Shown one piece after another: positions 19,400 through 38,477 of a stretch of 44,485 bases of DNA. Within the stretch, counting starts at the first letter, position 1; every line of letters starts with the position of its first letter. The translations under genes were made by a program, and so were the position numbers. The stretch is taken from contig JBKXCY010000001.1 in NCBI GenBank assembly GCA_046994005.1, positions 1 to 44,485 on the forward strand, written 5' to 3'. This DNA is from Streptococcus sp. (GTDB lineage: Bacteria; Bacillota; Bacilli; Lactobacillales; Streptococcaceae). The notes beneath the pieces were generated by a model that saw only the letters and a list, made by a program, of their open reading frames with translations, had not been told where the DNA came from and ran no database searches.

Positions 19400-19426
19400 A
19401 TGATGAATATGCAAGACTTGATTTAA
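19400..19426 (+). pseudogene. ebfC: 5' stub of YbaB/EbfC nucleoid-associated protein gene interrupted by island integration (MMNMQ-DLI*)
   Basis: Extended -10 TGGTATAAT (19352-19360), RBS GGAAGGA, then ATGATGAATATGCAA = MMNMQ, the recalled N-terminus of streptococcal EbfC; sequence then switches into the repeated att-like block. Confidence 0.65.
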
Positions 19427-19586
19427 GATTCTTAAAGTCTTGTTATTTATCAAAATACTGGTATTAAGGGATTTCGCATCCTTTTAAATCAATAAATTAT
19501 AGATGTGTTACAGTATATTGGACAGTAAATGGACAGTGACAGAGTGTTTGAAGAAGAGTAAAAGAGGCTTAAATGCCTCTTTTTAT
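19408..19586 (+). repeat. att-like repeat copy 1 (attL-like)
   Basis: TATGCAA core, AAGACT..TTTAAGA-T-TCTTAAAGTCTT palindrome, TTGGACAGTAAATGGACAGTGACAG, AAAAGAGGC/GCCTCTTTT hairpin; homologous to 31718 and 38148. Confidence 0.85.
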
Positions 19587-19772
19587 ATGTTTGTGGACTA
19601 GAAGTAGATAGAATATATAGATAATATGTAACAGTTATGCAAGTTATATATTTTTAAAAAGATATCACTTTGAAAAAATAAATAATTTAGTAGCCTCTAA
19701 AAAGACACTAATATATGGGGAGCTATTTAGTATTTTATATTGAGCTAGGCTTTTATTCGAACTTGCTTGGAA

Positions 19773-20024
19773 TTACTTATTTTCGGTTGATAGTAGCATA
19801 AATGATTTTTCTGTTAATCCAATCAATTTTTTTCTAAAATCAAATTGGTCAAATTTCCGAAGTATCCATCTTTCTTTTTCCATCAATTTTAATAGTTTCG
19901 TGACTGTTGGATTGGATAGATCTAAAAAATGCTCGACATCTCTTTGATTTTTACTAAATTGCGGAAATTGAGCGATATATAAGATAACATTTATGTATAG
20001 AGGTGGGAGATTTTGAAGAACCAA
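19773..20024 (-). pseudogene. MarR-family regulator remnant
   Basis: NQRDVEHFLDLSNPTVTKLLKLMEKERWILR..D.RKKLIGLTEK winged helix; short and without a clear start/RBS. Confidence 0.6.
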
Positions 20025-20505
20025 TCTATATTCGTGAGAATAGCGTTATCTAGTTTGCATTTATATTCTTTGAATTTTAAAAGAACTTTTTTTATACTAA
20101 TTTAGGCTTTGATGCAGCTGGTATTTGTAAGTTAATTGATACTTGAGAAATCAGTTTAACATTTATGTAGTTCATCAAACAATTGAAGATTCAACCCAAT
20201 TGATCAACTTTTAACTAGAAGAAGTAAAAAAACGAGGAGTTGCAATCGTGTATGATAGCTGGTACTTATCCTCTAAGTTTACTTTTGAATCAGCATAAGT
20301 TTTCGCCACTCGTGGTGTTAAATCTTCTGAACTTGAAAGTTTTCGTCTAACTTCTTAATTGTCATTTGCAGTTCTTCACCTTCACGCATTTGCAGGGATT
20401 GATGCCTTCGTTTGTTAAAAAATATAATTAGAGTTGTTAGTTTGAGTATATCTAACGGCTCTTTTTGTTTAATTGGAGAACTGGGGACCATTTTTTAATC
20501 AAAAA

Positions 20506-20522
20506 TTGTTTGTTTCAAACAA
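20506..20522. promoter_or_regulatory. LacR-type operator upstream of lacR
   Basis: TTGTTTG-TTT-CAAACAA palindrome; similar sites at 21999 and 25441. Confidence 0.6.
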
Positions 20523-20596
20523 AAAATGTAGATTTGAAATTTAAAAAAGAGTATAATGTAAAGAGAATGAAAAAACATGTGAAATAGGTAAAAAGA

Positions 20597-21352
20597 ATGA
20601 AAAAACATCAACGCTTGATAGAAATAGAGAAATTAGTGAATAGAAGAGGAGTAATAACAGTCGCTGAAATCGTTGAGATGATGAATGTATCAGATATGAC
20701 GATTAGAAGAGATTTAGCTGTATTAGAAGAACAGGGATTAATTACTAGGATCCATGGTGGAGCACGAAGTATCCAACAACTTAAATATAGAGAAATTCCT
20801 CATGAAGAAAAGCTGTATCAACACATTGAAGAAAAGAGGAAAGTAGCATCCAAAGCAGCAAAATTAATACAGGATGGAGAAACTATTTTCCTTGGACCGG
20901 GGACCTCTGTTGAAATTTTAGCTGAAGAAATTCAGAATGAAGAATTGCGAGTTGTTACGAATTGTTTACCGATTTTCAATGAGCTATATAAAAAAAGTTC
21001 TGATACGTTTAAAGTCATTTTGCTAGGGGGTGAAATGAGAGATCTGACTCAGGCTTTTGTTGGTGAGATAACGAACGCTTTATTAGATCGAATGTATTAC
21101 AATAAAATGTTCTTTAGTGGGAATGGTATCAAAGATGGTCAAGTTATGACTTCTTCGTTTGAGGAGGCTTTTACTCAGAGGCTAGCAATAGAAAAATCAT
21201 CGGAAGCATACCTATTGATGGATTCTTCTAAAATTGGTAAAGAAGATTTCACTTCTATCTGTTCGCTAGAAAATGTAACAGCAGTAATAACGGATATCTC
21301 TTCTGATAATGTACACGACACATTAGAGGTGTACACTCAAGTAATTGTATAA
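20597..21352 (+). CDS. lacR: DeoR-family lactose operon repressor
   Basis: VSDMTIRRDL HTH, RIHGGA, IFLGPGTS and DSSKIGK motifs; upstream of lacA. Confidence 0.9.
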   Translation: MKKHQRLIEIEKLVNRRGVITVAEIVEMMNVSDMTIRRDLAVLEEQGLITRIHGGARSIQQLKYREIPHEEKLYQHIEEKRKVASKAAKLIQDGETIFLGPGTSVEILAEEIQNEELRVVTNCLPIFNELYKKSSDTFKVILLGGEMRDLTQAFVGEITNALLDRMYYNKMFFSGNGIKDGQVMTSSFEEAFTQRLAIEKSSEAYLLMDSSKIGKEDFTSICSLENVTAVITDISSDNVHDTLEVYTQVIV

Positions 21353-21365
21353 AAGAGTAGGTAAA

Positions 21366-21884
21366 ATGAAAAAAAGATAATTGGTATTGATTTAGGTGGT
21401 ACTAGTGTAAAAATGGCTCTTGTATCAAAAATAGGCGAGGTATTAGAATTATGGAGTATCCCAACAGATACCAGAAATCAAGGGAAACAAATAATTCCGG
21501 ACATAGTACATTCAATTTTTGAAACTTTAGATAAAAATAATTTAACCACTTCAGACATTCTTGGTATCGGCATGGGAAGTCCTGGACAAATTGATTATCA
21601 ACATGGAACAGTATGTGGTGCTTATAATCTTGGATGGGATGAAATTCAAGAGGTTAGAGATCAATTTGAAAAATACTTTAGCCTACCATTTCTAATTGAA
21701 AATGATGCGAATGTTGCTGCCCTTGGAGAGAGGTGGAAAGGTGCAGGCGAATTTCTTTTAACAAATGTAAAAAAAAGAGTTTAATAGGTATGCTTTTCCA
21801 ACAGTTCGTAGGTCGACTGAATTGAAATTGGCTACTCTAGGAAATGTGGCAGGAGTCATTGGAGCAGCTAGTTTATTATTATAA
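21366..21884 (+). pseudogene. ROK-family glucokinase pseudogene (two frameshifts plus internal deletion)
   Basis: MKK-[fs]-IIGIDLGGTSVK...IENDANVAALGERWKGAG fused to EFLL..[fs]..FPTVRRSTELKLATLGNVAGVIGAASL*. Confidence 0.85.
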
Positions 21885-21998
21885 TTAAAAAAACTATTAA
21901 TTTTTTATAGAAGACATTGTTATCTATTATTATAAATGAGTAATAGACGAAAAAGTTTATAGAGAAAGGATTCGAGATTGATTATCTCGGATCTTTTT

Positions 21999-22116
21999 TT
22001 GTTTGAAAACAAACAACAGAAAGCGCTGTAAAAAACTTAAAAACTCATTATTTGTACAAAAAAAGATAAAATCAAACAAAAAATGTTGACTTTTTGTTTG
22101 TAATGGTGTATATTAT
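21999..22116 (+). promoter_or_regulatory. lacA promoter with LacR-type operators
   Basis: TTGTTTG-AAAA-CAAACAA (21999-22016); TTGACT 22086-22091 flanked by AAACA/TGTTT half sites; -10-like TATATT at 22109-22114. Confidence 0.6.
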
Positions 22117-22217
22117 AGGTGTATCTGAAAAGTAACTTAAAATGCTTTGCATCTGAGGTACTTTTTTAACTGATCGAGCAATCGATCAATCATAAATAAT
22201 TTTTTGGAGGCATAGTA

Positions 22218-22643
22218 ATGGCTATTGTAATTGGTGCAGATGCATCTGGAAAACGTTTAAAAGAACTTGTAAAAGACTTTTTAAACACTGAAGGATTTGA
22301 AGTAGTTGATGTAACTGCAGATGGTCAAGATTTTGTTGACGTCACTTTGGCAGTTGCAAAAGAAGTGAATACAGCTGATGACAATTTGGGTATTGTAATC
22401 GATGCTTATGGAGCTGGTCCATTCATGGTTGCTACTAAGATCAAAGGAATGGTTGCTGCTGAAGTTTCTGATGAACGTTCTGCATATATGACTCGTGGAC
22501 ACAACAACGCTCGTATGATTACTATGGGTGCTGAAATCGTTGGGGATGAATTAGCTAAAAACATCGTTAAAGGTTTCGTAAATGGTAAATACGATGGTGG
22601 TCGTCACCAAATTCGTGTAGATATGCTTAATAAAATGTGCTAG
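22218..22643 (+). CDS. lacA: Galactose-6-phosphate isomerase subunit A
   Basis: [18 protein letters not shown] and [15 protein letters not shown] motifs. Confidence 0.96.
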
Positions 22644-22661
22644 GAAAGAGGAAAGAAAAAA

Positions 22662-23177
22662 ATGAAAATTGCAATTGGTTGTGACCATATCGTTACAAAT
22701 GAAAAAATGGCTGTTTCTGATTTTTTGAAATCAAAAGGATACGAAGTGCTCGACTTTGGGACTTATGACCATACACGTACCCACTATCCAATCTTTGGTA
22801 AAAAAGTTGGTGAAGCTGTAGCAAGTGGCCAAGCAGATCTTGGTGTATGTATCTGCGGTACCGGTGTTGGTATCAACAATGCGGTAAACAAAGTTCCTGG
22901 TATCCGTTCTGCCTTGGTTCGTGATATGACTTCTGCTCTTTACGCTAAAGAACAATTGAATGCGAACGTTATTGGATTTGGTGGTAAAATCACTGGTGAA
23001 TTGTTGATGTGCGATATCATCGAAGCATTCATTCATGCTGAATACAAACCAACTGAAGAAAACAAAAAATTGATTGCAAAAATCCAACACGTTGAAACCC
23101 ATAATGCTCACCAAGCAGATGCCAACTTCTTTACTGAGTTTCTTGAAAAATGGGATCGCGGTGAATATCACGACTAA
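22662..23177 (+). CDS. lacB: Galactose-6-phosphate isomerase subunit B
   Basis: [15 protein letters not shown] and CGTGVG motifs. Confidence 0.96.
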
Positions 23178-23187
23178 GGGGTAGAAT

Positions 23188-24117
23188 ATGATTCTAACGG
23201 TAACTTTGAATCCATCTATTGATATTTCTTATCCACTAGAAAAATTGAACTTAGATACCGTCAATCGCGTATCTGAAGTTTCTAAAACAGCTGGTGGGAA
23301 AGGTCTTAATGTTACACGTGTCCTTTCAGAAAGTGGAGATCAAGTAGTAGCGACAGGTTTTGTCGGTGGGACAAATGGTCAATTTTTGAAAGAGCATTTG
23401 CCAGCAGGAGTTCAGGCAGCATTCTTTGATATCGATGGTGATACACGGAATTGTATCGCGATTCTACATGAAGGAAATCAGACAGAAATCCTGGAAGCAG
23501 GACCTGAAATTAGTAACTCTGAGTCAGAAGGATTCTTAAGCCATTTTGAAGGATTGATGAAAGATTCAAATGTTATTGCTATTTCTGGTAGTCTCCCAGC
23601 TGGCCTGTCTACAGATTACTATGCAAAACTGATTGAAATCTCACAAAAGCATCAACGCAAGGTTGTACTAGATTCGTCTGGAAAATCTCTAGAAGCAGTT
23701 TTGAAATCTAGTTTCAAGCCAACTGTTATCAAACCAAATAATGAAGAACTTTCTCAACTTTTGGGTAAAGAAGTAACAGAAGATCTTTCAGATTTGAAAG
23801 AAGTATTAACAGATCCATTGTTTGATGGCATTGAATGGATTATCGTCTCACTTGGAGGAGATGGGGCATTTGCTAAGCATCAAAACACCTTCTACAAAGT
23901 GGATATTCCTAAAATTGAAATAGTCAATCCGGTTGGTTCTGGAGATTCTACTGTTGCAGGAATTTCATCAGCTCTCAATAGTCAAAAAAATGACGAAGAA
24001 TTGTTGAAACACGCAATGGTATTGGGAATGCTCAATGCACAAGAAAAAATGACTGGCCATGTGAATATGGACAACTACGAACAACTATATAAAGAAATTA
24101 AAGTAAAAGAGGTATAA
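23188..24117 (+). CDS. lacC: Tagatose-6-phosphate kinase
   Basis: [17 protein letters not shown] and NPVGSGDS PfkB motifs. Confidence 0.95.
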
Positions 24118-24119
24118 AA

Positions 24120-25100
24120 ATGGCACTTACAGCACAAAAACGTAAATCATTAGAAAAACTTTCAGACGAAAATGGAATCATCTCAGCTTTGGCATTCGAC
24201 CAACGTGGTGCCTTGAAACGTTTGATGGGTCAATACCAAGACGCTGAACCAACTGTAGCTCAAATGGAAGAATTGAAAGTTCTTGTAGCAGATGAATTGA
24301 CAAAATATGCTTCATCTATGCTTCTTGACCCTGAATATGGACTTCCTGCTACTAAAGCTTTGGACAAAAATGCTGGACTCCTTCTTGCATATGAAAAAAC
24401 AGGATACGATACTTCAAGCACAAAACGTTTGCCTGACTGTTTGGATGTATGGTCTGCAAAACGTATCAAAGAACAAGGTGCAGATGCCGTTAAATTCTTG
24501 CTTTACTATGATGTAGATAGTGCAGATGAATTGAACCAACAAAAACAAGCTTACATCGAACGCGTAGGTTCTGAATGTGTGGCTGAAGATATCCCATTCT
24601 TCTTGGAAATCTTGGCTTACGATGAAAAGAATGCTGACACAGGTTCTGTTGAATTTGCTAAAGAAAAACCTCGTAAAGTTATTGAAGCAATGAAAGTATT
24701 CTCAAACCCACGCTTCAATATCGATGTATTGAAAGTTGAAGTTCCAGTAAACATGAAATATGTTGAAGGATTTGCTGAAGGTGAAGTGGTTTACAGCCGT
24801 GAAGAAGCTGCTGCTTACTTCAAAGCACAAGACGAAGCTACAAACCTTCCATACATCTACTTGAGTGCTGGTGTATCAGCTAAATTGTTCCAAGAAACTC
24901 TTGAATTTGCTCACAATTCAGGTGCAAACTTCAACGGTGTACTTTGTGGACGTGCAACTTGGGCTGGATCTGTTCAATCTTATGTTGAAAAAGGTGAAGA
25001 AGCAGCTCGCGAATGGTTGCGTACAACAGGATTCCAAAACATTGATGAATTGAACCAAGTTCTTCAACAAACTGCTACTTCTTGGAAAGAAAGAGTTTAA
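24120..25100 (+). CDS. lacD: Tagatose-1,6-bisphosphate aldolase
   Basis: [24 protein letters not shown] and LCGRATW motifs. Confidence 0.96.
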
Positions 25101-25196
25101 TCACTGTTATTTAATGTGAAATTTCAACGATTTAACCTCCTAAGGCATTTTAAAATGTTATATTAAATTTTGTTCTTTGTTGAAATTGTTAAATAG

Positions 25197-25246
25197 AAGA
25201 CCATCGGTAGACTTTCATAACTTGAAAGTTTTCGATGGCTTTTTTG
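25197..25246 (+). terminator. Terminator after lacABCD
   Basis: CCATCG...ACTTTCA/TGAAAGT...CGATGG stem followed by a T-tract. Confidence 0.6.
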
Positions 25247-25440
25247 TCAGAATAAAATGGAAAAATTGTTCAAAGTTAGGTTGTTATTGAGATGATCTTT
25301 GAGATATAAGTATATAATAGAGTTGTCTTTCCTCCTCTAATTAAAGACATTGGAGGAAAGGGGAGTCGCATCAGTAGTTTTATTTTTATGATGTCATCTG
25401 TGATTCACATAGTTTAACTGTAAGGATACAAACACTAGTT

Positions 25441-25524
25441 TTGTTTAAAGCAAACAAAAAAATAACAAAAATAGCAAAAAAATAATCAGAAAGGGTTTAC
25501 AAAATCAATTATAAGTGTTATAAT
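25441..25524 (+). promoter_or_regulatory. lacT promoter with LacR-type operator and cre-like site
   Basis: TTGTTTA-AAG-CAAACAA 25441-25457; AGAAAGGGTTTACA 25488-25501 overlapping -35 TTTACA; TG-TATAAT 25519-25524 with 17-bp spacing. Confidence 0.65.
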
Positions 25525-25546
25525 GAAAACATAGTTTGAATAGGGT

Positions 25547-25635
25547 GGATCGTAACTGAGTAATATTAGGCGAGACTGCAAATGAATTCGGGGGTAGTAT
25601 TATTCTGTTTTCCCTGCTCGTTTGTGGTCTTTTTA
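25547..25635 (+). promoter_or_regulatory. RAT (ribonucleic antiterminator) overlapping a leader terminator
   Basis: GGATCGTAACTG...TAGGCGAGAC matches the BglG/LacT RAT pattern and overlaps the GAGACTGCAAATGA...TCGTTTGTGGTCTTTTT hairpin. Confidence 0.8.
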
Positions 25636-25701
25636 TATTTGTTTATGACGTTATGATGATCTTACTTTTGGTCATGATACTGGGAGAAAGGAGGAGTTAC
25701 A

Positions 25702-26535
25702 GTGTTTCGGATTGTAAGCCCGATTAATAACAATATTGCTTTAGTAAGGGATGAAAATCAAAGAGAGTTAATCGTTACTGGTAAAGGTATTGTCTTTCAA
25801 AAGAAAAAAGGAGACATTATTGTAACTAGTTTAGTTGACAAGGTATTCCATTTGAAGACGGAAGAATCAAAAGAAAACTTTTTGGCTCTCTTAAAAGATG
25901 TTCCTCTTGATTTTATTACAGTGACATATGATGCTATTGATAAATTAACACTGAAATACAATTATCCTGTACAGGATTATCTGTATGTAACTTTAACTGA
26001 TCACATTTATTGTGCTTACCAGTCTATTCAAACAGGTAACTACCAAAGTAGTAAGTTGCCAGATGTTTCAAATGAGTATCCAATTGAATATCAAATTGGT
26101 GAAGAAGCTCTTTCCATTTTCAAATCAAAATTATTTGATGGTTTTCCTGAGGACGAACTTGGAAGAATTGCTATTCATTTTATAAATGCTAAGAGAGAAG
26201 GGGAAGTGACTCCATCATTTCAGATTAGTCGAACGAAGCATATTCTTGAATTAGTTAAGCAGGAATTGTCTCGAGACAATATTGAACGAACTCCACAGAA
26301 TAGTAATTTCTATGATCGTTTCATGGTTCATCTAAGTTATTTTTTGGATTATATTGATCGATCTAGGAAAGATAATACGTCCTTGCTGGGAATGGAAGAA
26401 CATCTAGAGGTTTCGTATCCTAAGGCTTTTGAAATAGGAAACAGAATCTATAATGTCATTGCAAGAGAAACAGGAGTGGATTTATTCCACAGTGAACGAA
26501 TATATATCGTTCTTCATATTCAACGTCTCTTGTAA
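25702..26535 (+). CDS. lacT: BglG-family antiterminator LacT
   Basis: INNN..GKGIVFQKKKGD CAT domain; PRD motifs TLTDHI, RIAIHF and LHIQR. Confidence 0.93.
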   Translation: MFRIVSPINNNIALVRDENQRELIVTGKGIVFQKKKGDIIVTSLVDKVFHLKTEESKENFLALLKDVPLDFITVTYDAIDKLTLKYNYPVQDYLYVTLTDHIYCAYQSIQTGNYQSSKLPDVSNEYPIEYQIGEEALSIFKSKLFDGFPEDELGRIAIHFINAKREGEVTPSFQISRTKHILELVKQELSRDNIERTPQNSNFYDRFMVHLSYFLDYIDRSRKDNTSLLGMEEHLEVSYPKAFEIGNRIYNVIARETGVDLFHSERIYIVLHIQRLL

Positions 26536-26581
26536 AAAATTAATTTGCTCTATATCATTAAAATTATAAGGAGGAACTATT

Positions 26582-26899
26582 ATGAATAGAGAAGAAGTCC
26601 AATTACTTGGCTTTGAAATTGTCGCTTATGCTGGTGATGCTCGTTCTAAACTACTTGAAGCATTAAAAGCTGCTGAAGCTAGCGATTTTGCTAAAGCAGA
26701 AGCCCTTGTTGAAGAAGCAGCAGGTTGCATTGCGGAAGCTCACAAAGCGCAAACATCTATGCTTGCTCAAGAAGCTGCGGGGGAAGAAATTCCATACAGC
26801 ATCACAATGATGCACGGACAGGATCACTTGATGACAACCATCTTGTTAAAAGATGTGGTTCATCATCTTATTGAATTATACAAACGGGGAGCTAAATAA
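26582..26899 (+). CDS. lacF: PTS lactose EIIA
   Basis: AGDARS and HGQDHLMTT motifs. Confidence 0.95.
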
Positions 26900-26901
26900 T
26901 A

Positions 26902-28602
26902 ATGAACAAACTCATTGAGCTTATTGAAAAAGGAAAACCATTCTTTGAAAAGATTTCTCGTAATAAATATTTGCGAGCGATTCGTGATGGTTTCATTGCA
27001 GGGATGCCTGTAATCTTATTCTCATCTATCTTCATCCTAATTGCGTATGTACCAAACGCTTGGGGATTCCACTGGTCTAAAGATATTGAAACATTCTTGA
27101 TGACTCCATATAACTATTCTATGGGCATCTTGGCCTTCTTCGTTGGTGGTACAACGGCTAAGGCTTTAACTGATTCAATGAACCGCGACCTTCCAGCAAC
27201 CAACCAAATCAACTTCATTTCTACAATGTTGGCTTCTATGGTTGGCTTCTTGCTCATGGCTGCTGAACCTGCTAAAGAAGGTGGATTCTTAACAGCCTTC
27301 ATGGGTACAAAAGGTCTGTTGACAGCCTTCATTGCAGCCTTTGTTACAGTTAATGTTTATAAGGTCTGTGTGAAAAATAATGTGACGATTCGCATGCCAG
27401 ACGAGGTTCCACCGAATATTTCACAAGTTTTTAAAGACTTGATTCCATTTACAGTTTCAATTGTTCTCTTGTATGCATTTGAATTGATTGTTAAAGGTGC
27501 TATCGGTGTAACAGTTGCGGAATCTATCGGAACACTTCTAGCTCCATTGTTCTCTGCAGCAGATGGATATCTTGGAATTACCCTTATTTTTGGTGCTTAT
27601 GCCTTCTTCTGGTTTGTAGGTATCCATGGTCCTTCAATCGTAGAACCAGCGATTGCGGCGATCACATATGCAAATATCGATAACAACTTGCACTTGCTTC
27701 AAGCTGGACAACACGCAGATAAAGTCATCACTTCTGGGACTCAAATGTTTATCGTTACCATGGGTGGTACTGGTGCAACCTTGATTGTTCCATTCCTCTT
27801 CATGTGGTTGTGTAAGTCTGAACGAAACCGTGCGATTGGACGTGCATCTGTTGTTCCTACATTCTTCGGTGTAAACGAACCAATTCTCTTCGGGGCTCCA
27901 ATTGTATTGAATCCAACCTTCTTCATTCCATTTATCTTTGCGCCAATCGCAAACGTCTGGATCTTCAAATTCTTTGTTGATACCTTAGGAATGAACTCCT
28001 TCTCAGCCAACCTTCCATGGGTAACACCTGGTCCTCTCGGAATTGTCCTTGGTACAAACTTCCAAGTTCTTTCCTTCATCCTTGCTGCACTTCTTGTTGT
28101 AGTAGACGTGATCATTTACTACCCATTCGTTAAAGTTTACGATGAACAAATTCTTGAAGAAGAACGTTCAGGTAAATCAAACGATAGCTTGAAAGAAAAA
28201 GTTGCTGCAAACTTTAACACTGCAAAAGCAAATGCTATTCTTGAAAAAGCTGGTGTTGAAGGTGAACCAGTTCAAAACAATATCACAAAAGAAACAAACG
28301 TATTGGTTCTCTGTGCCGGTGGTGGAACTAGTGGACTTCTTGCCAACGCTTTGAATAAAGCTGCTGCAGAATACAATGTTCCTGTGAAGGCTGCTGCTGG
28401 TGGTTACGGTGCTCACCGTGAAATGTTGCCAGAATTTGACCTTGTTATTCTTGCTCCTCAAGTAGCTTCAAACTATGAAGATATGAAGGCTGAGACAGAT
28501 AAACTTGGAATCAAATTGGCTAAAACTGAAGGAGCTCAATACATCAAGTTGACTCGTGATGGTAAAGGCGCTCTTGCATTCGTTCAAGAACAATTTCAAT
28601 AA
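26902..28602 (+). CDS. lacE: PTS lactose EIICB
   Basis: [35 protein letters not shown]. Confidence 0.96.
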
Positions 28603-28653: not shown

Positions 28654-30111
<1,458 letters not shown>

Positions 30112-30255
30112 CCTCACTTGAACGTATCCTATTTTGTTATCAAATACTCTAGAAAAGGTCAAAGATTTTCATAAAATGGTCTTTGAAAAAGTCTGTATCG
30201 TTTGTTTCGATGTAGATTTTTTCCCTTTTCAATAACAAAAAGAAAGGAATTGATT

Positions 30256-31140
30256 GTGACGATTGAATTAAAAAATGATTACTTAACTGTCCAATTCCAA
30301 GAAGTCGGAGGAGCCCTTTCTTCCATTAAGGATAAAGACGGGGTTGAATACCTCTGGCAAGGGGATGCAACTTATTGGAGTGGCCAAGCGCCAGTCTTAT
30401 TCCCGAATTGCGGAAGTGTTCGTGACGATAAGGCCTTATTTGGTCAAAAAGTGGGTCAGCTTCCAAGACATGGATTGGTCCGTAAAAAAACATTCCAGGC
30501 TCATCCTGTAAACGATCATCAAGTGAAGTTTACGATTGAAGATACTCCAGAGATGTTTGAGCAATATCCTTATCATTTTAAGTTGAGTATTTTGTATACT
30601 TTGAAAGAAAAATCAATTGTAACAGAATACATTGTTGAAAATCTTTCAGATGAAGTGATGCCTTACTTTATCGGTGGTCACCCTGGTTTCAATTGCCCTC
30701 TTCTTGCGGATGAAGCTTATGAAGATTATTATTTGGAATTTGAAAATGAGGAAACTTGTACAGTTCCAAAACAATTTCCTGATACAGGGCTTTTAGATGT
30801 ACAAGATCGTACGCCGTTCTTGCAAGGTCAAAAAACACTTGATTTGGACTTCAAGATTTTTGAAAAAGATTCGGTAACGCTTGATCAATTGTCCTCAAGA
30901 AGTATCCGTTTGAAATCGAAAAAGCATGATAAGGGAATTCAGTTGCAATTTAAGGATTTCCCTCATCTGATCCTATGGTCTACAACCAATAAAGGTCCAT
31001 TCATAGCTTTGGAACCTTGGAGTGGTCTATCTACCTCTTTAGAGGAATCTGACCAGTTTGATCAAAAACGGGATGTATCATTTGTTGAACCAAAGCATTC
31101 TGATCAAAAGAGCTTTGTCATTGAAGTGCTAGGAATTTAG
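30256..31140 (+). CDS. lacX: Aldose 1-epimerase family protein LacX
   Basis: EYLWQGD..WSGQAPVLFP, RHG, GGHPGFNCP and IALEPW motifs; GTG start after AAAGGA. Confidence 0.9.
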   Translation: MTIELKNDYLTVQFQEVGGALSSIKDKDGVEYLWQGDATYWSGQAPVLFPNCGSVRDDKALFGQKVGQLPRHGLVRKKTFQAHPVNDHQVKFTIEDTPEMFEQYPYHFKLSILYTLKEKSIVTEYIVENLSDEVMPYFIGGHPGFNCPLLADEAYEDYYLEFENEETCTVPKQFPDTGLLDVQDRTPFLQGQKTLDLDFKIFEKDSVTLDQLSSRSIRLKSKKHDKGIQLQFKDFPHLILWSTTNKGPFIALEPWSGLSTSLEESDQFDQKRDVSFVEPKHSDQKSFVIEVLGI

Positions 31141-31272
31141 CCTCTATTATTCTTGTATATTAGCGATAGTCCAAGATCTCCCTCCTTTAAAATAATATTC
31201 TATTGAGACAATTTTTGACTTGGACTATCGTTGATTGTAGATGATAGCGATGGAAAGTTTAATTGAAAACAG

Positions 31273-31325
31273 AAGAGCAAGACTGAATGAATGTTATTTG
31301 AGATTCATTTAGTCTTGCTTTTTTA
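31273..31325 (+). terminator. Terminator after lac operon
   Basis: AGCAAGACTGAATGAAT...ATTCATTTAGTCTTGCT followed by a T-tract. Confidence 0.7.
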
Positions 31326-31350
31326 TATGGGTGAATCAAGCTGAAACTGA

Positions 31351-31521
31351 CTCGAAAGTGCTAAAAATACGATTTTATTAGTCGATCAAACAAAATTCAT
31401 TCACACTGGATTTTATAAAATTAACCAACTGTCGGCCTACAAAACGATTATTTCAGATGCTGCCCCGGATCCTAAAATGTTAGTTGCGGCAGAGGATTGT
31501 GGGACAGAATGGATTTACTAA
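31351..31521 (+). pseudogene. C-terminal fragment of a DeoR/GlpR-family regulator
   Basis: Translates LESAKNTILLVDQTKFIHTGFYKINQLSAYKTIISDAAPD...WIY*, matching the DeoR C-terminal LVD..KF / IITD pattern; no start. Confidence 0.7.
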
Positions 31522-31717
31522 GAGTAAAAATTCAAATTGAATGATAAAAGGGAGATTGGCTCAGTAATTAATTTAATAAAAAAGTTCTGTCAGTTTCATT
31601 AAACGAATTTAATGACATAAGGTCTTCTATCAGTAAATGGCCATTATTAATCTTTCGTTTTCAAAATATTCATGTATTGTCTAAATGATTTCCTTACTAT
31701 CTTTAATTTATATAGTT

Positions 31718-31895
31718 TATGCAAGACTTAATTTAAGATTCTTAAAGTCTTGTTATCCGTCAAAATATTGATTTTAAGCGATTTTGCATTCGATAAAATC
31801 AACAATTTATAGATGTATTACATTATATTGGACAGTAAATGGACAGTGACAGAGTGTTTGAAGGAGAAAAAGAGGCCTAAGGGTCTCTTTTATGT
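31718..31895 (+). repeat. att-like repeat copy 2
   Basis: Same TATGCAA core, palindrome, TGGACAGT repeats and hairpin; near-identical to copy 3. Confidence 0.9.
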
Positions 31896-32095
31896 TAATT
31901 ACTTTTATTATTATAAATAATAATAAATCAATTTCAGAAATTATTAAACGTAATTTAGTAAGAGTTGATAGAATGAATCTTTCTAAACTTCTAAAAATTA
32001 GTTTGAGTACATTACATAACTTTTTATTTGATTATCATTTTATTGAATTATATTTTGATATAATTAATGAAATAAGATAATAAAAGGTAGAAAAT

Positions 32096-33478
32096 ATGCA
32101 GAAGATAAAAGAGAATACTGCTTTTGAAAAAATTCCTGAGATTTCAAAAAAAATAGAAGAAGTGAAAATCACCTCTTTCTATATGTTGAGCACAGATTTA
32201 TATAAGATAGACAACAATAAACTAATAGAGATAATTACTAAAAAATTTGAAAATCATCCGGCTACGATTATGACACTAATAGGTACAAAAAATAATACTC
32301 TTTTAAAAAAGAAATATAAGCCATGGAAAATTCCCAAAGAGTTGCAACATTTAAAAAACAAAGTGGATGAGAAAACTAATTATTATTTAGACTTATATTT
32401 TGCAAGATTAGAAAAAGGAAAACAAAATTGTCTTTTTAGTTCTAAATCTAATCAATTTGTTAAATTTATTTTTGCTCCTTTAATAGAAGTGGATAGTGAG
32501 GAAGAATTACATTTTTTCTTTGTGACACTCACTGTTTTTCAAAACGGATCAATAGTCATAGAATTATTTGAAGATTTAAGATCATCATTCTATAGATTTG
32601 ACTTTTTTCATCCGATTACAATGATGAGATGGCAAATATTTCCTGATTTTGAAAAGAGTGATAGAGAGTATTCTTTAAATACTAAACATCAACTTGATGA
32701 TATATTGAAGTATATAAAAAAAGAACTTTCCTCCATAAACGGAGGATTGAAGTTAACTGAGAGTATATTTTATTTACATTTTGTTACAAATATGAAGCAG
32801 ATGAATAAAATGGATTTTTTTAAAAATAAAAAACTGTATACATGGATGATAAATGCTCCCTATAGTGTTAACAATGTATCTTCAGAAATTAAATCAAAAA
32901 ACTATTTAACCAACTATTATAATTTAGGTAGCATTAATTATATAAATAAAGGAGCAAATTATATAGTATGGAGTGAGGATGATTCTGACAAATTTGAATC
33001 AAATTTTTTAAGACAAGCCAGTTTCTTTTTATCTTCAGCCACTCCATTCTTTCAGTTAGTGTGTCTAGATGAGACTATTATGGATGGGCTGGAAAAATTC
33101 CAACTTTCAAATGATAAACAACTAATAAAATTTAACGAGTGGGTTCACGGTTATAAACGATCTTTTCTATATATCTATCGAATAAATCATATTGCTATTT
33201 TTGATTTATTTAATCATTTAAAAGAAAGTTCTTATTTCAAGCATGATGAATATATAGAAAAAATTAAGCAGGAGGAATACGATTTGTTAAAGGATAGAAA
33301 TCAATTTAATGAGTCACAGAAGAATAGAGTTATGGAAATTATACTTTTCTTCGTTAGTTTGGTCTCTGTTTTACAAGTTGTAGATATATTTACTAAAAGT
33401 AAAATAATATTATTGATGAGTGCTCTACTTACTATAATTTTGTCGGTTAGTATGCTTATTTACAGAAACCGTAAATGA
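32096..33478 (+). CDS. Hypothetical protein with two C-terminal TM helices
   Basis: 460-aa very AT-rich ORF with AAAGG RBS; soluble body, then MEIILFFVSLVSVLQVV and IILLMSALLTIILSVSMLIY, basic tail. Confidence 0.75.
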   Translation: MQKIKENTAFEKIPEISKKIEEVKITSFYMLSTDLYKIDNNKLIEIITKKFENHPATIMTLIGTKNNTLLKKKYKPWKIPKELQHLKNKVDEKTNYYLDLYFARLEKGKQNCLFSSKSNQFVKFIFAPLIEVDSEEELHFFFVTLTVFQNGSIVIELFEDLRSSFYRFDFFHPITMMRWQIFPDFEKSDREYSLNTKHQLDDILKYIKKELSSINGGLKLTESIFYLHFVTNMKQMNKMDFFKNKKLYTWMINAPYSVNNVSSEIKSKNYLTNYYNLGSINYINKGANYIVWSEDDSDKFESNFLRQASFFLSSATPFFQLVCLDETIMDGLEKFQLSNDKQLIKFNEWVHGYKRSFLYIYRINHIAIFDLFNHLKESSYFKHDEYIEKIKQEEYDLLKDRNQFNESQKNRVMEIILFFVSLVSVLQVVDIFTKSKIILLMSALLTIILSVSMLIYRNRK

Positions 33479-33894
33479 TATTTAAAATTTGATAAAATAA
33501 ATGTAAATGGCATCCGAACAGATGATTTGTATAACTGTTCAGATGCTTTTCAATTTCTATCAATATTTTTTTCGAATATGACATATTGTACTTGATTATG
33601 AATTCTGCCTTATTCTTGAAATTTATCAGGAAAAAATAACATCAATAAATGAATTAAGATACCAACCAAATATAAAATCACACTGATATCATCTTGCGAA
33701 CTAGATCCTTCGAAGAATTCTTATTTATACCAAATCGAATTTCATTTTATTGGGAGATATAGATTTCTAAAATGGAACATCGACTAACATTTATATAAAA
33801 TTTGTATCTTTCTGAACATATATTTGAATTTTTAATTTAAACATATTACAATTAATATTGAAGTCAAAATCAATTAGAAAAGGAATATCCAAAC

Positions 33895-34761
33895 GTGGGT
33901 ACATTATTAGCAACAAGATTAAAAAATAGACGAAAAGAATTAAAAATGTCACAAAAAGAATTGGCTGAAGGGATTTGCAAACAAGGTCAAATTAGTCGGT
34001 TAGAGAGTGGAGAATATACTCCAGGGGCAGACTTCTTGTATGCTTTATCACGCAGACTAAAAGTCAGTATGGATTATTTTTTTGAAGAACATGTTGAACA
34101 GAAAATAGACGAGCTAACAGAATTTAAAAAAATAGCACGTATTTTTATTATGAATCGGAATTATGAGTCTTTAAAATATATACTTGAATTAGAAAATATT
34201 AAGACCCATCGTTTATCTTTATCTGATAAACTTTATATGGAGTGGATAAAAACACTTGTTGATTTTTATTTTTATGGAAAGAAAGACGAGGCAGTTCAAA
34301 AATTAGAGGGAGTACTTGAGCAACTAAGTACATCTGATTTGAACTATCTTCAATTCTCTAATACATTATTTAATTTTTATTATGAAGTTGGGAGTATAGA
34401 ACGATTTAATAAAATTAGAGATCGAATAGAGGAAAGAGTTAACCAATTGAGTTTAAATACGATAGAAGAACTAGAATTGTCAATCAAATTTAACTATAAC
34501 GTATGCCGGTATTTATGGCTCCAAAAAGATACTGAACAAGCAATTTCTAGAATTTCTACTACAATTAAACAATGTAAAGATTATAGAACTACCTATCTAT
34601 TAGCAGATTTATATGTATTAATGGGAAATATAAGTAAAAGTATTTCATCAAAAGATAACACATTAGAAAATTATGAAGTTGCCCGTTTTTTGTACAAACT
34701 TGATGAGAATATCCCTATGATGCTAAAAGTAGAGCAGTATATTTTAAAATTGACGGAATAA
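33895..34761 (+). CDS. XRE-HTH/TPR (PlcR/Tpr-like, RRNPP) transcriptional regulator
   Basis: RRKELKMSQKELAEGICKQGQISRLE HTH plus helical C-terminal repeats; AAAGGA RBS, GTG start. Confidence 0.85.
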   Translation: MGTLLATRLKNRRKELKMSQKELAEGICKQGQISRLESGEYTPGADFLYALSRRLKVSMDYFFEEHVEQKIDELTEFKKIARIFIMNRNYESLKYILELENIKTHRLSLSDKLYMEWIKTLVDFYFYGKKDEAVQKLEGVLEQLSTSDLNYLQFSNTLFNFYYEVGSIERFNKIRDRIEERVNQLSLNTIEELELSIKFNYNVCRYLWLQKDTEQAISRISTTIKQCKDYRTTYLLADLYVLMGNISKSISSKDNTLENYEVARFLYKLDENIPMMLKVEQYILKLTE

Positions 34762-34913
34762 TATGTAACGATGTTTTTAAATAACATCGTTTTAAAATAC
34801 AAAAAAGCATCTAATTATAAATAGATACAAAATGATTATATTATGTATTGACTTGTTATGCATGAGGTGCTAAAATAAAATGCAATAATACAAAAGGGAG
34901 GAGATCAAGAAGG

Positions 34914-35148
34914 ATTTGTTTTTGTCATGGGTTAGCTGACTTGCTCTATTCGTGCGATGATAAGTATTCAACAAAAGATATTCAAAGAGTATTGTAGATT
35001 ACTGGAAAGAAATTATTTCAATAACAAAGTACATAATGAATATAGTGTTTGAGGAGTATTAAGTGACAAAATAGGAACTTTATTATCATATGTTGCACTT
35101 AAACATAAGATAATAATTTGTGAAGAAATATTTGGAATTTTTAAATGA
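34914..35148 (+). pseudogene. Degenerate 3' remnant of a LanC-like lanthionine synthetase
   Basis: ICFCHGLA (CHG motif) at 34914-34937; after a frameshift, ...YSV*GVLSDKIGTLLSY...GIFK* ends 9 bp before the ABC gene. Confidence 0.45.
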
Positions 35149-35157
35149 GGCTGGAAT

Positions 35158-36768
35158 ATGACATTAAAAACTTATTTAATTAGATGCAAACGAAGTAATT
35201 CTATATGGTTGTTTTGGATTTTTATTAATTCATTATGTGTTTACTTAAATGGTATATTGAGTGCAAAAGCAATTTCTACAATTGTAAATTTTGATTTACA
35301 GGGATTTTTGTATTTAAGTGGAGCGATTTTAGCTGTAAATTTAATATGGGTATTACAAATATATCAAAACTCAAAAGCAAGTGAAAAAGCCATACAAGAA
35401 ATGTGTACCGAAATACGTAAAGATATTGTAAAAAGTATTGAAAGTAAAGGTGTGATACGTTTTGGCTCAAAAAGTGTTAGCGCCTATACCTCATGGCTGA
35501 CAAATGATCTTAATACTATTCGAGATCTTGGCTTTGAAACACTTGAATTAATGATTAGTCAAGCATTAAATATCATTTTTGCAATTATTGCCTTTTTTAG
35601 TTTCCATTATTCATTATTGTTTACAATTTTGATATTCTTCCTTTTAATGGTAAATCTCCCTAAAATATTTACAAAGAAAATGGAGAATAAAGCTGTTTAC
35701 TTTACTGAGAAGAATGAAGAATTAGTTAAAGCAATTGATGATTCTTTAAGTGGATTTCGAATGTTATCCAATGCTAATCAACTTCAATTTTTAATGGTAA
35801 AAATTTTATCTTATTCAAAAAAATATTCGAAGTCCAGAGTTTCATATTCAAAAACCTTTGGTGGGCTTATGTCTGTTCAAAATGGGACTAGTTTTGTGAG
35901 TCAAATTGCCATGTTGACCCACGCAGGGGTCTTATATTTTAACCGATTAATTCCGATTGGTGCTGTATCTTCTTCTCAATATTTTTCATCAATTATCTTT
36001 ACTGGCTTAACAGGCTTAACGGCAAATTACGCTGAGTTTAAAACGGTAAACAAAATATTTGAAAAATTTGAATTGGAAGGTGACCAAAGTATTAATGAAA
36101 GTAATGTTAATAAACAAACTTGGAAGAAATTTATAGATAAAGTAGAATTTCAATCGGTAACTATTGAACGTGACGGTAAGATTGTCTTAGATAATTTAAA
36201 TGTTAAAATTGAAAAAAATAAGAAGTATGCAATATCAGGATCATCTGGTTCAGGAAAATCAACTATATTAAAGGCTATTAATGGTGAAATCCCAATTTCG
36301 AAAGGCCACATCTTCTATGACAATATCGATTCAAAAAATATGAATTTCAAGGATCTTCATGAAAATATTTCTTATGTTAGTTTGGAAGATCATATTTTTA
36401 ACGAATCCATTTTATTTAATTTGACATTAGGCCGAGAAATAGAAGATTCAAAAATCGAAAAAGCATTGGAATTATTTTATTTAAGAGACTGGATTAATGG
36501 ATTGAGTCATGGATTGGAAACTACTTTATCGGAAATTAGCCAAGATATTTCTAGTGGACAGAAGCAACGAATTAGTCTAGCTAGAGCTTACCTTGAAGAA
36601 AAACCAATTTTAATTATTGATGAGGCAACTGATGCGATTGATAAAGAAAGACGGTATCAAATTGAAAAACATCTATTCTCAATGACAGAAAAAACTGTTA
36701 TTTTTGTAAGCCATCATCTAGATGAAAATATAAGATCTCTTTTTGATAAAATTATATATTTGGATTAG
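35158..36768 (+). CDS. ABC exporter, fused permease/ATPase (peptide/bacteriocin type)
   Basis: N-terminal TM domain; GSSGSGKS, ISSGQKQR and IIDEAT motifs. Confidence 0.9.
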   Translation: MTLKTYLIRCKRSNSIWLFWIFINSLCVYLNGILSAKAISTIVNFDLQGFLYLSGAILAVNLIWVLQIYQNSKASEKAIQEMCTEIRKDIVKSIESKGVIRFGSKSVSAYTSWLTNDLNTIRDLGFETLELMISQALNIIFAIIAFFSFHYSLLFTILIFFLLMVNLPKIFTKKMENKAVYFTEKNEELVKAIDDSLSGFRMLSNANQLQFLMVKILSYSKKYSKSRVSYSKTFGGLMSVQNGTSFVSQIAMLTHAGVLYFNRLIPIGAVSSSQYFSSIIFTGLTGLTANYAEFKTVNKIFEKFELEGDQSINESNVNKQTWKKFIDKVEFQSVTIERDGKIVLDNLNVKIEKNKKYAISGSSGSGKSTILKAINGEIPISKGHIFYDNIDSKNMNFKDLHENISYVSLEDHIFNESILFNLTLGREIEDSKIEKALELFYLRDWINGLSHGLETTLSEISQDISSGQKQRISLARAYLEEKPILIIDEATDAIDKERRYQIEKHLFSMTEKTVIFVSHHLDENIRSLFDKIIYLD

Positions 36769-36823
36769 TTTTAACATACTGAGATCAGTAGGTTAGATTG
36801 AAGAAAGATTCATCTACCAGATT

Positions 36824-36869
36824 TAAAAACGCACCAAAATTGGTGCGTTTTTATTTTTTGTGCTATAAT
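36824..36869 (+). promoter_or_regulatory. pezAT promoter/operator palindrome
   Basis: TAAAAACGCACCAA-AA-TTGGTGCGTTTTTA followed by extended -10 TGCTATAAT. Confidence 0.7.
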
Positions 36870-36890
36870 AGAAATAAAAGGAGGAGTTAC

Positions 36891-37367
36891 ATGATTGGAG
36901 AAAATATAAAAACGTTACGTAAAACACATAAATTAACCCAGCCTGAGTTTGCAAAGATTGTTGGTATTTCTAGAAATAGTCTGAGTCGTTATGAAAATGG
37001 AACAAGTCGAGTTTCGACAGAATTAATAGATCGTATCTGCAAGAAATTTAATGTTTCGTATATCGATATCGTAGGGGAGGAAAAAATGCTCACACCAGTA
37101 GAAGATTATCAATTAACTCTGAAAATTGAAGTGATTAAAGAACGAGGGGCGAATATCTTAGCGCAACTTTATCGTTTTCAAGATGAACAAGGAATTGCAT
37201 TTGATGATACTTTGAATCCTTGGGTTCTAATGAGCGATGATTTGTCTGATTTGATTAATACGAGGATTTATCTTGTTTCAACTTTTGAGGATATAGAGCG
37301 ATTTAATGGCTATTTGGATGGTATTGAACGTATGCTAGAACAAGCTAGTCATCTGGTGGTGGCTTAA
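36891..37367 (+). CDS. pezA: PezA antitoxin (XRE HTH plus epsilon-like domain)
   Basis: MIGENIKTLRKTH.LTQPEFA...LTPVEDYQLTLKIEVIKERG; stop overlaps the pezT start; AGGAGG RBS. Confidence 0.92.
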   Translation: MIGENIKTLRKTHKLTQPEFAKIVGISRNSLSRYENGTSRVSTELIDRICKKFNVSYIDIVGEEKMLTPVEDYQLTLKIEVIKERGANILAQLYRFQDEQGIAFDDTLNPWVLMSDDLSDLINTRIYLVSTFEDIERFNGYLDGIERMLEQASHLVVA

Positions 37368-38134
37368 TGAAACTAGAAGAATTTAGTCAAGATAATTTTG
37401 AACAAGCCTCCAAACGGCTTATCCGTTCTTTAACTCGTGGAAAAACAATCTCATCTCATCCTAAGGCTATTTTGCTCGGTGGACAGAGTGGTGCTGGGAA
37501 AACAACGATTCATCGTATTAAACAAAGGGAATTTCAAGGTAATATCATTATCATTGATGGGGATAGTTATCGCTCTTTTCATCCGAACTACATTGGCCTA
37601 CAGGAAAAGTATGGCAAAGATAGTGTGGATTATACCAAAGTATTCGCGGGACAAATGGTTGAATATCTTGTAGATGAGTTGAGTAAAAAAGGTTTTCATT
37701 TATTAATCGAGGGTACCTTGAGAACAACAGAAGTCCCCCGAAAAACGGCCCAATTATTGATAACTAAAGGATATCAAGTCTCACTTGCACTAATTGCGAC
37801 CAAACCAGAATTATCCTATCTCAGCACCTTGATACGTTATGAAGAGCTCTATGCTATAGATCCTCGTCAAGCTAGAGCAACTCCCAAAGAGCACCATGAT
37901 GGAATTGTAGAACATTTAGTTGATAACTTACGAGAGTTAGAAAATGACAAGATTTTTAATCAAGTTCAAATTTACCGAAGAGATCAATCGTGTGTTTATG
38001 ATTCGCAAGTAGACGAAACATCAGCAGCAGTAGTCCTACACGAATGCCTATTTGGAAAATGGAATAAGGTGGAAAAAGAGATGTTGAAGTTGGGACAGGA
38101 ACGGTTGAGAGAACTGGGAGGAATTGATAAGTGA
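37367..38134 (+). CDS. pezT: PezT zeta toxin (UNAG kinase)
   Basis: GGQSGAGKT P-loop, IIDGDSYR, EGTLRT and RATPKEHHD motifs. Confidence 0.95.
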   Translation: MKLEEFSQDNFEQASKRLIRSLTRGKTISSHPKAILLGGQSGAGKTTIHRIKQREFQGNIIIIDGDSYRSFHPNYIGLQEKYGKDSVDYTKVFAGQMVEYLVDELSKKGFHLLIEGTLRTTEVPRKTAQLLITKGYQVSLALIATKPELSYLSTLIRYEELYAIDPRQARATPKEHHDGIVEHLVDNLRELENDKIFNQVQIYRRDQSCVYDSQVDETSAAVVLHECLFGKWNKVEKEMLKLGQERLRELGGIDK

Positions 38135-38147
38135 CGAAGGGCTAATT

Positions 38148-38326
38148 TATGCAAAGACTTAATTTAAGATTCTTAAAGTCTTGTTATTTGTCAAAATACT
38201 GATTTTAAGCGATTTTGCATTCGATAAAATCAACAATTTATAGATGTATTACATTATATTGGACAGTAAATGGACAGTGACAGAGTGTTTGAAGGAGAAA
38301 AAGAGGCCTAAGGGTCTCTTTTATGT
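38148..38326 (+). repeat. att-like repeat copy 3
   Basis: Differs from copy 2 by one inserted A after the core and a few substitutions; starts 13 bp after the pezT stop. Confidence 0.9.
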
Positions 38327-38477
38327 AATTACTTAGTTTTTGTTAAGAATTAACGGATTAAGTTTCATGGGTATATTTATAACTTTTTGTCATTGGCAAA
38401 TAAATTATATCAGGACCTTTTACTATGATATTGGCCACTTATACAATTACATACGATAACATTATAGTTTATTTTAT

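What the first reader, a model, noticed from the sequence alone, without database searches (positions are those of the whole stretch)
19408..38334. Integron-like tandem cassette array: three att-like ~180-bp repeats bound unrelated cargo modules
Seen: three direct copies (19408-19586, 31718-31895, 38148-38326), each beginning exactly at TATGCAA. Each then has a nested palindrome (AAGACT..TTTAAGA-T-TCTTAAAGTCTT), tandem TGGACAGT repeats about 110 bp in, and a hairpin. Copies 2 and 3 are nearly identical and copy 1 is more diverged. They delimit a ~12.3-kb lactose module, a ~6.4-kb regulator/ABC/pezAT module, and a third module running off the window. Known: a 7-8 bp crossover core plus distal direct-repeat arm sites is tyrosine-integrase att architecture, and streptococcal ICEs/IMEs can accrete in tandem to leave cis-mobilizable elements. 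Inference: one integrase (not in this window) repeatedly adds and could excise single or combined modules, so this locus would act as a shuffleable cassette platform.
Basis: partly seen in the sequence, partly recalled or inferred. Interest (0 to 1): 0.88.

Follow-up and report, generated by a model that had tools for sequence, protein, structure and literature searches.

The report
Conjugative element with three left ends
The three repeats are copies of the left attachment end of a known kind of streptococcal conjugative element that inserts at the start of the ebfC gene, and the two inner copies mark where earlier cargo blocks (lactose use, a toxin-antitoxin pair) were stacked on, so this is a known process and not an integron.

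Summary
The repeat is real. It is the attL arm of an ICESt3-type ICE that integrates at the 5' end of ebfC in the Streptococcus parasanguinis group, as published for ICE_SparasFW213_ebfC (PMC4701971). Copy 1 is the true attL: native ebfC promoter, then ATGATGAATATGCAA (ebfC codons 1-5), then the arm. Empty sites with the same left flank exist. In 13 of 15 relatives' stretches holding both arm and ebfC, the element ends in repressor-TcpA-MobT-VirB4-Int-attR-ebfC. The window stops inside that repressor; Int and ebfC are unassembled in this genome. Copies 2 and 3 lack the attR arm and the core's 5' half. They are internal attL' joints at secondary sites, like ICESt1 attL'; copy 3 sits 13 bp after pezT, where the native sequence continues differently. 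Break points across relatives cluster at either edge of TATGCAA, implying a 7-bp overlap. Expected excision is nested (each attL with the single attR), not single cassettes. No attB' product was found (0 of 401 genomes). Known kind; modest interest.

The parts
19330..19399 (+). Native ebfC promoter and ribosome-binding region (chromosomal B side of attL)
   Evidence: The same 70 bp (96%) lies directly before intact ebfC in empty sites G149 and G153; G153 has the same lar-DUF924 left flank as the window. Extended -10 TG-TATAAT ends at 19360.
19400..19414 (+). 15-bp direct-repeat core ATGATGAATATGCAA = ebfC codons 1-5 (MMNMQ); inferred 7-bp overlap TATGCAA at 19408-19414
   Evidence: The same 15-mer starts ebfC (PF02575) at attR in G069 and other relatives; break-point classes.
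19408..19586 (+). Copy 1: attL arm of the ebfC ICE (TGGACAGT arm-type repeats 19519-19537, terminator-like hairpin 19560-19583)
   Evidence: The attR arm of G069 carries matching TGGGCAG repeats in the same orientation.
19587..31717 (+). Lactose/tagatose-6-P cargo block: lacR 20597-21352, ROK fragment 21413-21784, lacA-D 22218-25100, lacT 25702-26535, lacF/E 26582-28602, lacG 28666-30111, aldose epimerase 30202-31140
   Evidence: Pfam/NCBIfam. 99% covered by G126, where it lies between two arms with the same joint.
31718..31895 (+). Copy 2: internal attL' (overlap plus arm; no attR arm, no ATGATGAA)
   Evidence: The same lac-end joint occurs in G126 and G131, each followed by different cargo. 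The arm is identical over 148 compared nt to a primary attL in L158.
31896..38147 (+). Second cargo block: 460-aa unknown 32096-33478, HTH-RNPP regulator 33895-34761, ABC exporter 35158-36768, pezA about 36891-37367, pezT 37367-38134
   Evidence: Its first 120+ nt occur directly behind the primary attL in L086, L208, L248 and L264. The whole block is one contig in runs X1 and X6.
38148..38326 (+). Copy 3: internal attL' joined at a secondary site 13 bp after the pezT stop (one extra A relative to the core)
   Evidence: In other streptococci the pezT 3' flank runs TTTATG|AGTACA with no arm. Contigs of three studies reach 29-36 letters past the joint (borderline for the tool's 31-letter rule).
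38327..44232 (.). Left cargo of the rightmost element (lipoprotein 39438-39800, IS remnants, Rgg 41252-42127, ABC exporter 42137-43720)
   Evidence: Its head is at a primary attL in L125; 79% of 38331-44485 is covered by the ICE of G127. The IS label is recalled from the sequence, not from a call.
44233..44485 (-). 3' part of the S24/cI-like ICE repressor; the contig ends here, in the ICE regulation module
   Evidence: PF00717; 99% identical over 291 bp to the G143 backbone; found before TcpA-relaxase-VirB4-Int in 13 relatives.

Best explanation
The window holds the left half of a composite ICESt3-type ICE integrated at the 5' end of ebfC. Shown in relatives: a 383-aa tyrosine integrase and a DUF3173 protein (putative excisionase, role recalled) lie at the far end beside attR, which restores ebfC. 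Copy 1 is attL. Copies 2 and 3 are left ends of other ICE variants of the same family, joined by the integrase to weak secondary sites inside earlier cargo. Each joint is foreign DNA, then a 7-bp overlap (TATGCAA), then the attL arm, with no attR arm. Inferred: the array grows as a ratchet, with older cargo pushed away from ebfC and kept as passenger DNA. Excision pairs one attL or attL' with the single attR, giving nested products (whole island; island minus lac; island minus lac and pezAT block), as for ICESt1/ICESt2. My favoured route to a joint (about 0.35): two related ICEs in tandem share an attI with both arms; it acts as attP on a secondary site in the upstream element and deletes the redundant backbone. 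Alternatives with the same end product: insertion into a resident element followed by homologous collapse (about 0.3), or aberrant excision followed by re-integration (about 0.25).
For: Core = ebfC start, with empty sites sharing the window's left flank. Of the best 30 of 32 close ebfC matches in 401 genomes, 16 have the attR arm upstream and 14 the native promoter. 13 of 15 stretches holding arm and ebfC carry the full backbone, and 4 of those 13 have a second internal arm. The window ends in the repressor, and G000 contig C292 holds the TcpC region at 93-95% DNA identity. The G069 integrase has PF00589 and the R/HxxR/H/Y residues (motif reading recalled). Of 17 non-canonical left flanks, 7 keep at least TATGCAA, 1 is copy 3, 9 keep 0-3 nt (8 of them AA), and no cluster representative keeps 4-6. 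Native continuations break exactly at |GACTT in 3 cases and at |TATGCAA in 1. The heads of window blocks 2 and 3 are primary left ends in other records. The lac-end joint carries three different downstream cargos; the window's arm allele differs from G126/G131 at +12 and +32 to +34, so the swap point is within about 30 nt of the core. Precedent: passages of PMC5812530 (ICESt1 attL'), PMC4057263 (Fean6303 attL2), PMC4701971 (ICE at ebfC).
Against: Integrase, relaxase, VirB4, attR and ebfC are not in this assembly (82% complete, and the core genes next to ebfC are missing too), so this copy could be decayed. No excision product from an inner site was found: 0 of 401 genomes have a non-A base before TATGCA at ebfC, and 0 of 30 ebfC loci have a third upstream type. 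Native targets were printed for only 7 of 17 joints, not for copy 2; of the 7, L213 breaks about 13 nt further left and L076 is inconclusive. Copy 3's extra A may inactivate it. Arms also occur in islands at rplL and rpmG with no ebfC-type backbone detected, which the tandem-deletion route does not explain. Related genomes are not independent, and natural transformation could move joints.
Confidence: 0.82

Rival explanations
1. Classical CIME-CIME-ICE accretion: each inner copy is an attI made by integration into a resident attR, and each module is a cis-mobilisable element with its own attL and attR.
For: Well documented in streptococci (passages of PMC7563491, PMC5704250). A true attI (integrase, attR arm, full core, arm) exists at this locus in G156. 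The decayed cargo lies farthest from the target gene, as published.
Against: Copies 2 and 3 have neither the attR arm nor ATGATGAA upstream. Copy 3's left flank is unbroken native pezT 3' DNA up to TTTATG.
Confidence: 0.08
2. Integron-like platform: one integrase adds and removes single modules by recombining the repeats with each other, so module order can be shuffled.
For: The same module heads occur at first and at inner positions, and one joint carries three different cargos. Arm-headed cargo occurs at other loci.
Against: All repeats are one-armed attL sites. The integrase is a Tyr integrase with a weak arm-binding-domain hit, within a conjugative backbone. Each arm ends in a terminator-like hairpin. 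Among 13 full elements none has more than two arms. No module order swap was seen within one lineage.
Confidence: 0.07
3. The inner copies are inert relics or products of homology-assisted transformation, or the repeat is a MITE or sRNA, or the MAG is mis-assembled.
For: The host group is naturally competent (recalled). The assembly is fragmented (333 contigs). The arm folds stably. No inner-site excision product was found.
Against: No Rfam match. Only 4 copies in G000 and 1-3 in each of 38 carrier genomes. Break points cluster at the overlap edges. The copy-2 joint recurs in G126 and G131, and block 2 with the copy-3 joint recurs in independent runs.
Confidence: 0.05

Closest known systems
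ICE_SparasFW213_ebfC (ConjICESt3 family, 37 kb, 5' ebfC, tyrosine integrase; PMC4701971, section 22, passages and supplementary table row)
   Same: Same species group, same target (5' end of ebfC, promoter displaced), same module types in relatives (Rep_trans/MobT relaxase, FtsK-type TcpA, VirB4, Tyr integrase).
   Different: Internal attL copies were not mentioned in the passages I read. Here there are two inner arms plus lactose and pezAT cargo. I did not compare sequences with FW213.
ICESt1 attL'/ICESt2 of S. thermophilus (passage of PMC5812530 citing Pavlovic 2004; the original paper not read)
   Same: An internal copy of attL in an ICESt3-family element, giving a nested shorter element with the single attR.
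   Different: Target is ebfC 5', not fda 3'; two inner sites; function untested here; joints traceable to low-homology secondary sites.
CIME/microCIME tandem accretion in S. salivarius and S. agalactiae (passages of PMC7563491, PMC5704250, PMC5357655)
   Same: Cargo-only blocks of 1-13 kb distal to the target gene, including tagatose-pathway lactose genes, moved in cis by the ICE.
   Different: CIMEs are defined as keeping attL and attR; these blocks have no attR arm. In S. salivarius tandems were reported at rpmG, rpsI, fda and rplL, not ebfC.
Fean6303 (attL, attL2, attR) and PAISt modular excision (passages of PMC4057263)
   Same: Nested or modular excision from internal att sites.
   Different: Actinobacterial elements with unrelated conjugation systems.
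Integrons (recalled)
   Same: A tandem of unrelated cargo units separated by repeats that a tyrosine recombinase acts on.
   Different: No IntI, attI, attC or cassette promoter; units are 6-12 kb multi-gene blocks; the repeats are double-stranded att arms.

Membership tests
ICESt3-family ICE at 5' ebfC | Direct repeat of the ebfC 5' end at the left boundary, with a matching empty site | tested here: met
ICESt3-family ICE at 5' ebfC | Tyrosine integrase and attR next to ebfC | tested here: inconclusive
   Present in 13 of 15 relatives' stretches; not assembled in G000, where ebfC itself is missing
ICESt3-family ICE at 5' ebfC | MobT (PF02486) relaxase, TcpA coupling protein, VirB4 | tested here: inconclusive
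   Met in G069 and relatives. In G000 only the TcpC region (C292) and the repressor end were found.
ICESt3-family ICE at 5' ebfC | More than 40% identity of relaxase, CP and VirB4 to ICESt3 proteins | not tested
   No ICESt3 reference sequence was fetched; the family assignment rests on domain content and PMC4701971
ICESt3-family ICE at 5' ebfC | Excision and conjugative transfer | not testable with these tools
   Needs PCR or read data from an induced culture
CIME (classical) | No integrase or conjugation genes in the block | tested here: met
   for blocks 1 and 2 (ORFs of 80 aa or more, 40 of 70 listed ORFs scanned, overlapping shadow ORFs left out)
CIME (classical) | Block flanked by attL and attR (inner site = attI with both arms) | tested here: not met
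   No attR arm and only 7 of 15 core nt contiguous at copies 2 and 3
ICESt1-type internal attL' | Internal, same-orientation, near-identical copy of attL | tested here: met
ICESt1-type internal attL' | Recombines with attR, leaving attB' | tested here: inconclusive
   No attB' scar in 401 genomes, about 30 of them close relatives
Integron | IntI integrase with adjacent attI and cassette promoter | tested here: not met
   The upstream genes are lar/DUF924 and the ebfC promoter; the only PF00589 match in G000 is a weak 249-aa frame on C15; the arm ends in a terminator-like hairpin
Integron | attC sites ending single-gene cassettes | tested here: not met
   The repeats head multi-gene blocks and match an ICE attL; no attC model was run
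MITE or sRNA | Many scattered copies, or an RNA family match | tested here: not met
   4 copies in G000, 1-3 in 38 carrier genomes, no Rfam match

The most novel reading that the evidence does not exclude
The ebfC-specific integrase routinely joins its attL arm to targets with little or no overlap homology (two break classes 7 nt apart, reminiscent of Tn916 coupling sequences, recalled). The arm would then act as a portable one-ended head that stacks cargo onto the ICE and seeds islands at rplL, rpmG and other loci. The inner sites would be re-usable, so that the lactose block is a standing landing pad for successive ICE variants and single blocks may even move by attL x attL' recombination.
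Probability: 0.3. Interest if true: 0.55.

Novelty: new member of a known kind. Interest (0 to 1): 0.3.

Why it matters
It shows, at base resolution and across many natural strains, how an ICE in a common oral commensal group stacks cargo. About half of the close relatives sampled carry an element at ebfC (16 of 30), and 4 of 13 complete elements have an inner attL. The joint catalogue predicts the overlap (TATGCAA) of an integrase for which I found no mechanistic study in my searches. It also gives a ready natural substrate, three nested attL sites and one attR, for testing how CIME-like blocks arise. The lactose block holds the only close lacC/D/E/G copies assembled in this incomplete genome. 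It does not define a new class of element.

Tried and rejected
Integrase search in the own genome (PF00589): one weak match on C15, not element-type. ebfC search in the own genome: none, an assembly gap. Rfam: no match. The 27-28-bp match that made up most of the 29 of 121 hits is a short motif shared with another att site at the rpmG 3' end (rpmG and cadDX labels recalled from translations), not this repeat. My idea that TTTATGCA after pezT is the start of a downstream gene was rejected: the native sequence is TTTATGAGTACA. The native continuation of the copy-2 joint was not found (5 matches in 400 genomes; 2 have the same joint, 3 diverge earlier). attB' scar search: 0 of 401. Run X1 has no cover over the lactose block while covering the promoter-core, block 2 and the start of block 3, which would fit loss of the block, but no contig joins across it, so it is not counted as evidence; no joint between repeats was listed in any of 4 runs. 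L076's apparent repressor-gene joint was dropped as inconclusive. Earlier scan findings: three look-ups returned nothing. Literature: six searches found no paper on internal attL sites at ebfC; most subscription papers, including Pavlovic 2004 and Bellanger 2011, are outside the library and were not read.
Full report
Observation. Identities are 86%, 87% and 98%. The palindrome, the TGGACAGT pair and the distal hairpin are real. Pfam and NCBIfam scans of 40 of the 70 listed ORFs confirm a lactose/tagatose-6-phosphate block and a block with a regulator, an ABC exporter and pezAT. They also show that the contig ends inside an S24 (cI/LexA-like) repressor gene. The genome holds one further degenerate copy on C53 and no Rfam family matches the window, so this is not a dispersed MITE or a known RNA.

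What the repeat is. Copy 1 is preceded by ATGATGAA, giving ATGATGAATATGCAA, which reads MMNMQ. In the relative G069 the same chromosomal neighbourhood leads to this 15-mer and the arm. Then come 46 kb of cargo and backbone, a 383-aa PF00589 integrase, a 78-bp attR arm and the same 15-mer as the start of ebfC (PF02575). The backbone has a PF02486 relaxase, an FtsK-type coupling protein, VirB4, TcpC, a CHAP protein and a DUF3173 protein before the integrase. Named records carrying the arm are mostly S. parasanguinis and near relatives. Of 15 fetched stretches that hold both an arm and ebfC, 13 have the order repressor-TcpA-relaxase-VirB4-Int-attR-ebfC; G121 and G131 do not. Empty sites exist: G153 has the window's lar-DUF924 flank, the same promoter and an intact ebfC. 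Among the best 30 of 32 close ebfC matches in 401 genomes, 16 have the attR arm upstream and 14 the native promoter. Copy 1 is therefore attL. This matches ICE_SparasFW213_ebfC, a ConjICESt3 element at 5' ebfC (PMC4701971: passages, section 22 and one supplementary row). In G000 the integrase, relaxase, VirB4 and ebfC are not assembled. The window end is 99% identical to the G143 backbone over 291 bp and contig C292 holds the TcpC region. The core genes next to ebfC are also missing, so this looks like an assembly gap.

Anatomy. Placing the G069 attR arm, core and attL arm as in attP gives TGGGCAG repeats at -81 and -71 and TGGACAG repeats at +111 and +122, all in one orientation, around the core. 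This is the layout expected of arm-type sites (inference; the integrase has a sub-cut-off PF14657 hit). The arm ends in a hairpin with T-tracts on both strands, which would insulate cargo from the ebfC promoter. That is the opposite of an integron's cassette promoter.

The inner copies. A classical tandem leaves attI = attR arm + full core + attL arm, and G156 shows exactly that at this locus. Copies 2 and 3 have no attR arm and only TATGCAA. For copy 3 the target is known: in many streptococci the pezT 3' flank reads ...GGGCTAATTTATG|AGTACA, and the window switches to the arm there, with one extra A. For copy 2 the same lac-end joint occurs in G126 and G131, and three different cargos follow it. 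The window's arm allele differs from theirs at +12 and +32 to +34 and equals a primary attL allele (L158), placing the swap within about 30 nt of the core. The first 120+ nt of block 2 are a primary left end in four records, and the head of block 3 in one. Four of the 13 complete elements have a second arm; none has three. Contigs from independent runs contain block 2 whole (X1, X6), and X1, X3 and X6 extend 29-36 letters past the copy-3 joint.

Break points. All arm copies in the loci held fall into 19 left-flank clusters: the promoter, the attR arm and 17 others. Seven keep at least TATGCAA (one cluster mostly the full core), one is copy 3, and nine keep 0-3 nt, eight of them ending in AA against an AA frequency of 0.14 in the window's cargo. 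No representative keeps 4-6 nt. A candidate native target was printed for 7 of the 17. Three break exactly before GACTT, one exactly before TATGCAA, copy 3 within TATG, one about 13 nt further left, and one is inconclusive. The targets include a cargo lipoprotein start, an IS remnant and the repressor gene. I read this as a 7-bp overlap resolved to either parent after integrase-made joints at poor sites. Arms also head cargo inside islands at rpmG (G122) and rplL (G153) with no ebfC-type backbone detected.

How it works. Shown: identity of the site, empty and filled states, modular variation at the core. Inferred: inner copies are attL' sites; excision pairs any of them with the one attR and gives nested products; older cargo is passenger DNA, with pezAT possibly stabilising it (recalled role). 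Three routes give the same joint: deletion from a tandem's attI to a secondary site, insertion into a resident followed by homologous collapse, or aberrant excision then re-integration. I cannot separate them. Against the function of the inner sites, no attB' scar was found (0 of 401 genomes; 0 of 30 ebfC loci).

Comparison and verdict. It works like ICESt1, whose internal attL' yields ICESt2 (passage of PMC5812530), and like Fean6303 (passage of PMC4057263). It also resembles CIME accretion, including lactose-carrying CIMEs (passages of PMC7563491, PMC5704250, PMC5357655 and PMC7168690). It fails the strict CIME test (no attR arm) and the integron tests. Six literature searches showed no description of inner attL sites at ebfC, but key subscription papers were not readable and I read only one supplement. 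Verdict: a new member of a known kind with a useful mechanistic detail; interest 0.3.

Noticed in passing
window:12888-18709: Nickel-dependent lactate racemase cluster (larD, larC, larB, larA, Crp-type regulator, larE); LarC carries a long His-rich repeat (14579-14769). The cluster is present in some relatives and replaced by other genes in others just left of the ebfC promoter.
   Followed up: no
G000:C53:7494-7670 (L004); also G069:C38, G042, G128, G150, G154, G156: A relic arm with a near-full core at a second locus, beside an ABC permease start and followed by putative choline-binding-like proteins (label recalled), with no ICE backbone; shared by several relatives.
   Followed up: partly
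L238 (G131:C4): lac end, arm, about 870 bp of remnant DNA, then a second copy of about 90 bp of the ebfC promoter and ebfC: a promoter duplication in place of attR, possibly from aberrant capture or a MAG mis-assembly.
   Followed up: partly
L212, L224, L303 (G134, G138): The left end is an attR-type arm plus core with no integrase upstream in G134: an old attR may serve as the standing upstream region of ebfC in these species.
   Followed up: partly
L015-L035; window:31758-31785: A 27-28-bp motif of the arm is shared almost exactly with the att site at the rpmG 3' end in many streptococci, suggesting a common accessory-factor site across integrase specificities.
   Followed up: no
window:1-68, 2500-2685 and 11252-11578: Two families of short repeats dispersed over many G000 contigs (BOX/RUP-like, label recalled); copies also sit just downstream of ebfC in relatives and at many contig ends.
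   Followed up: no
window:32096-33478: 460-aa protein with no Pfam or NCBIfam match, 93-94% conserved at DNA level directly behind the arm in G154 and G122.
   Followed up: no
window:19400-19426: After integration the ebfC promoter and ribosome-binding site drive an 8-codon ORF (MMNMQDLI) into the arm.
   Followed up: no
G124 (L279): The integrase reads as two frames (118 and 245 aa), so it may be frameshifted in that strain.
   Followed up: no
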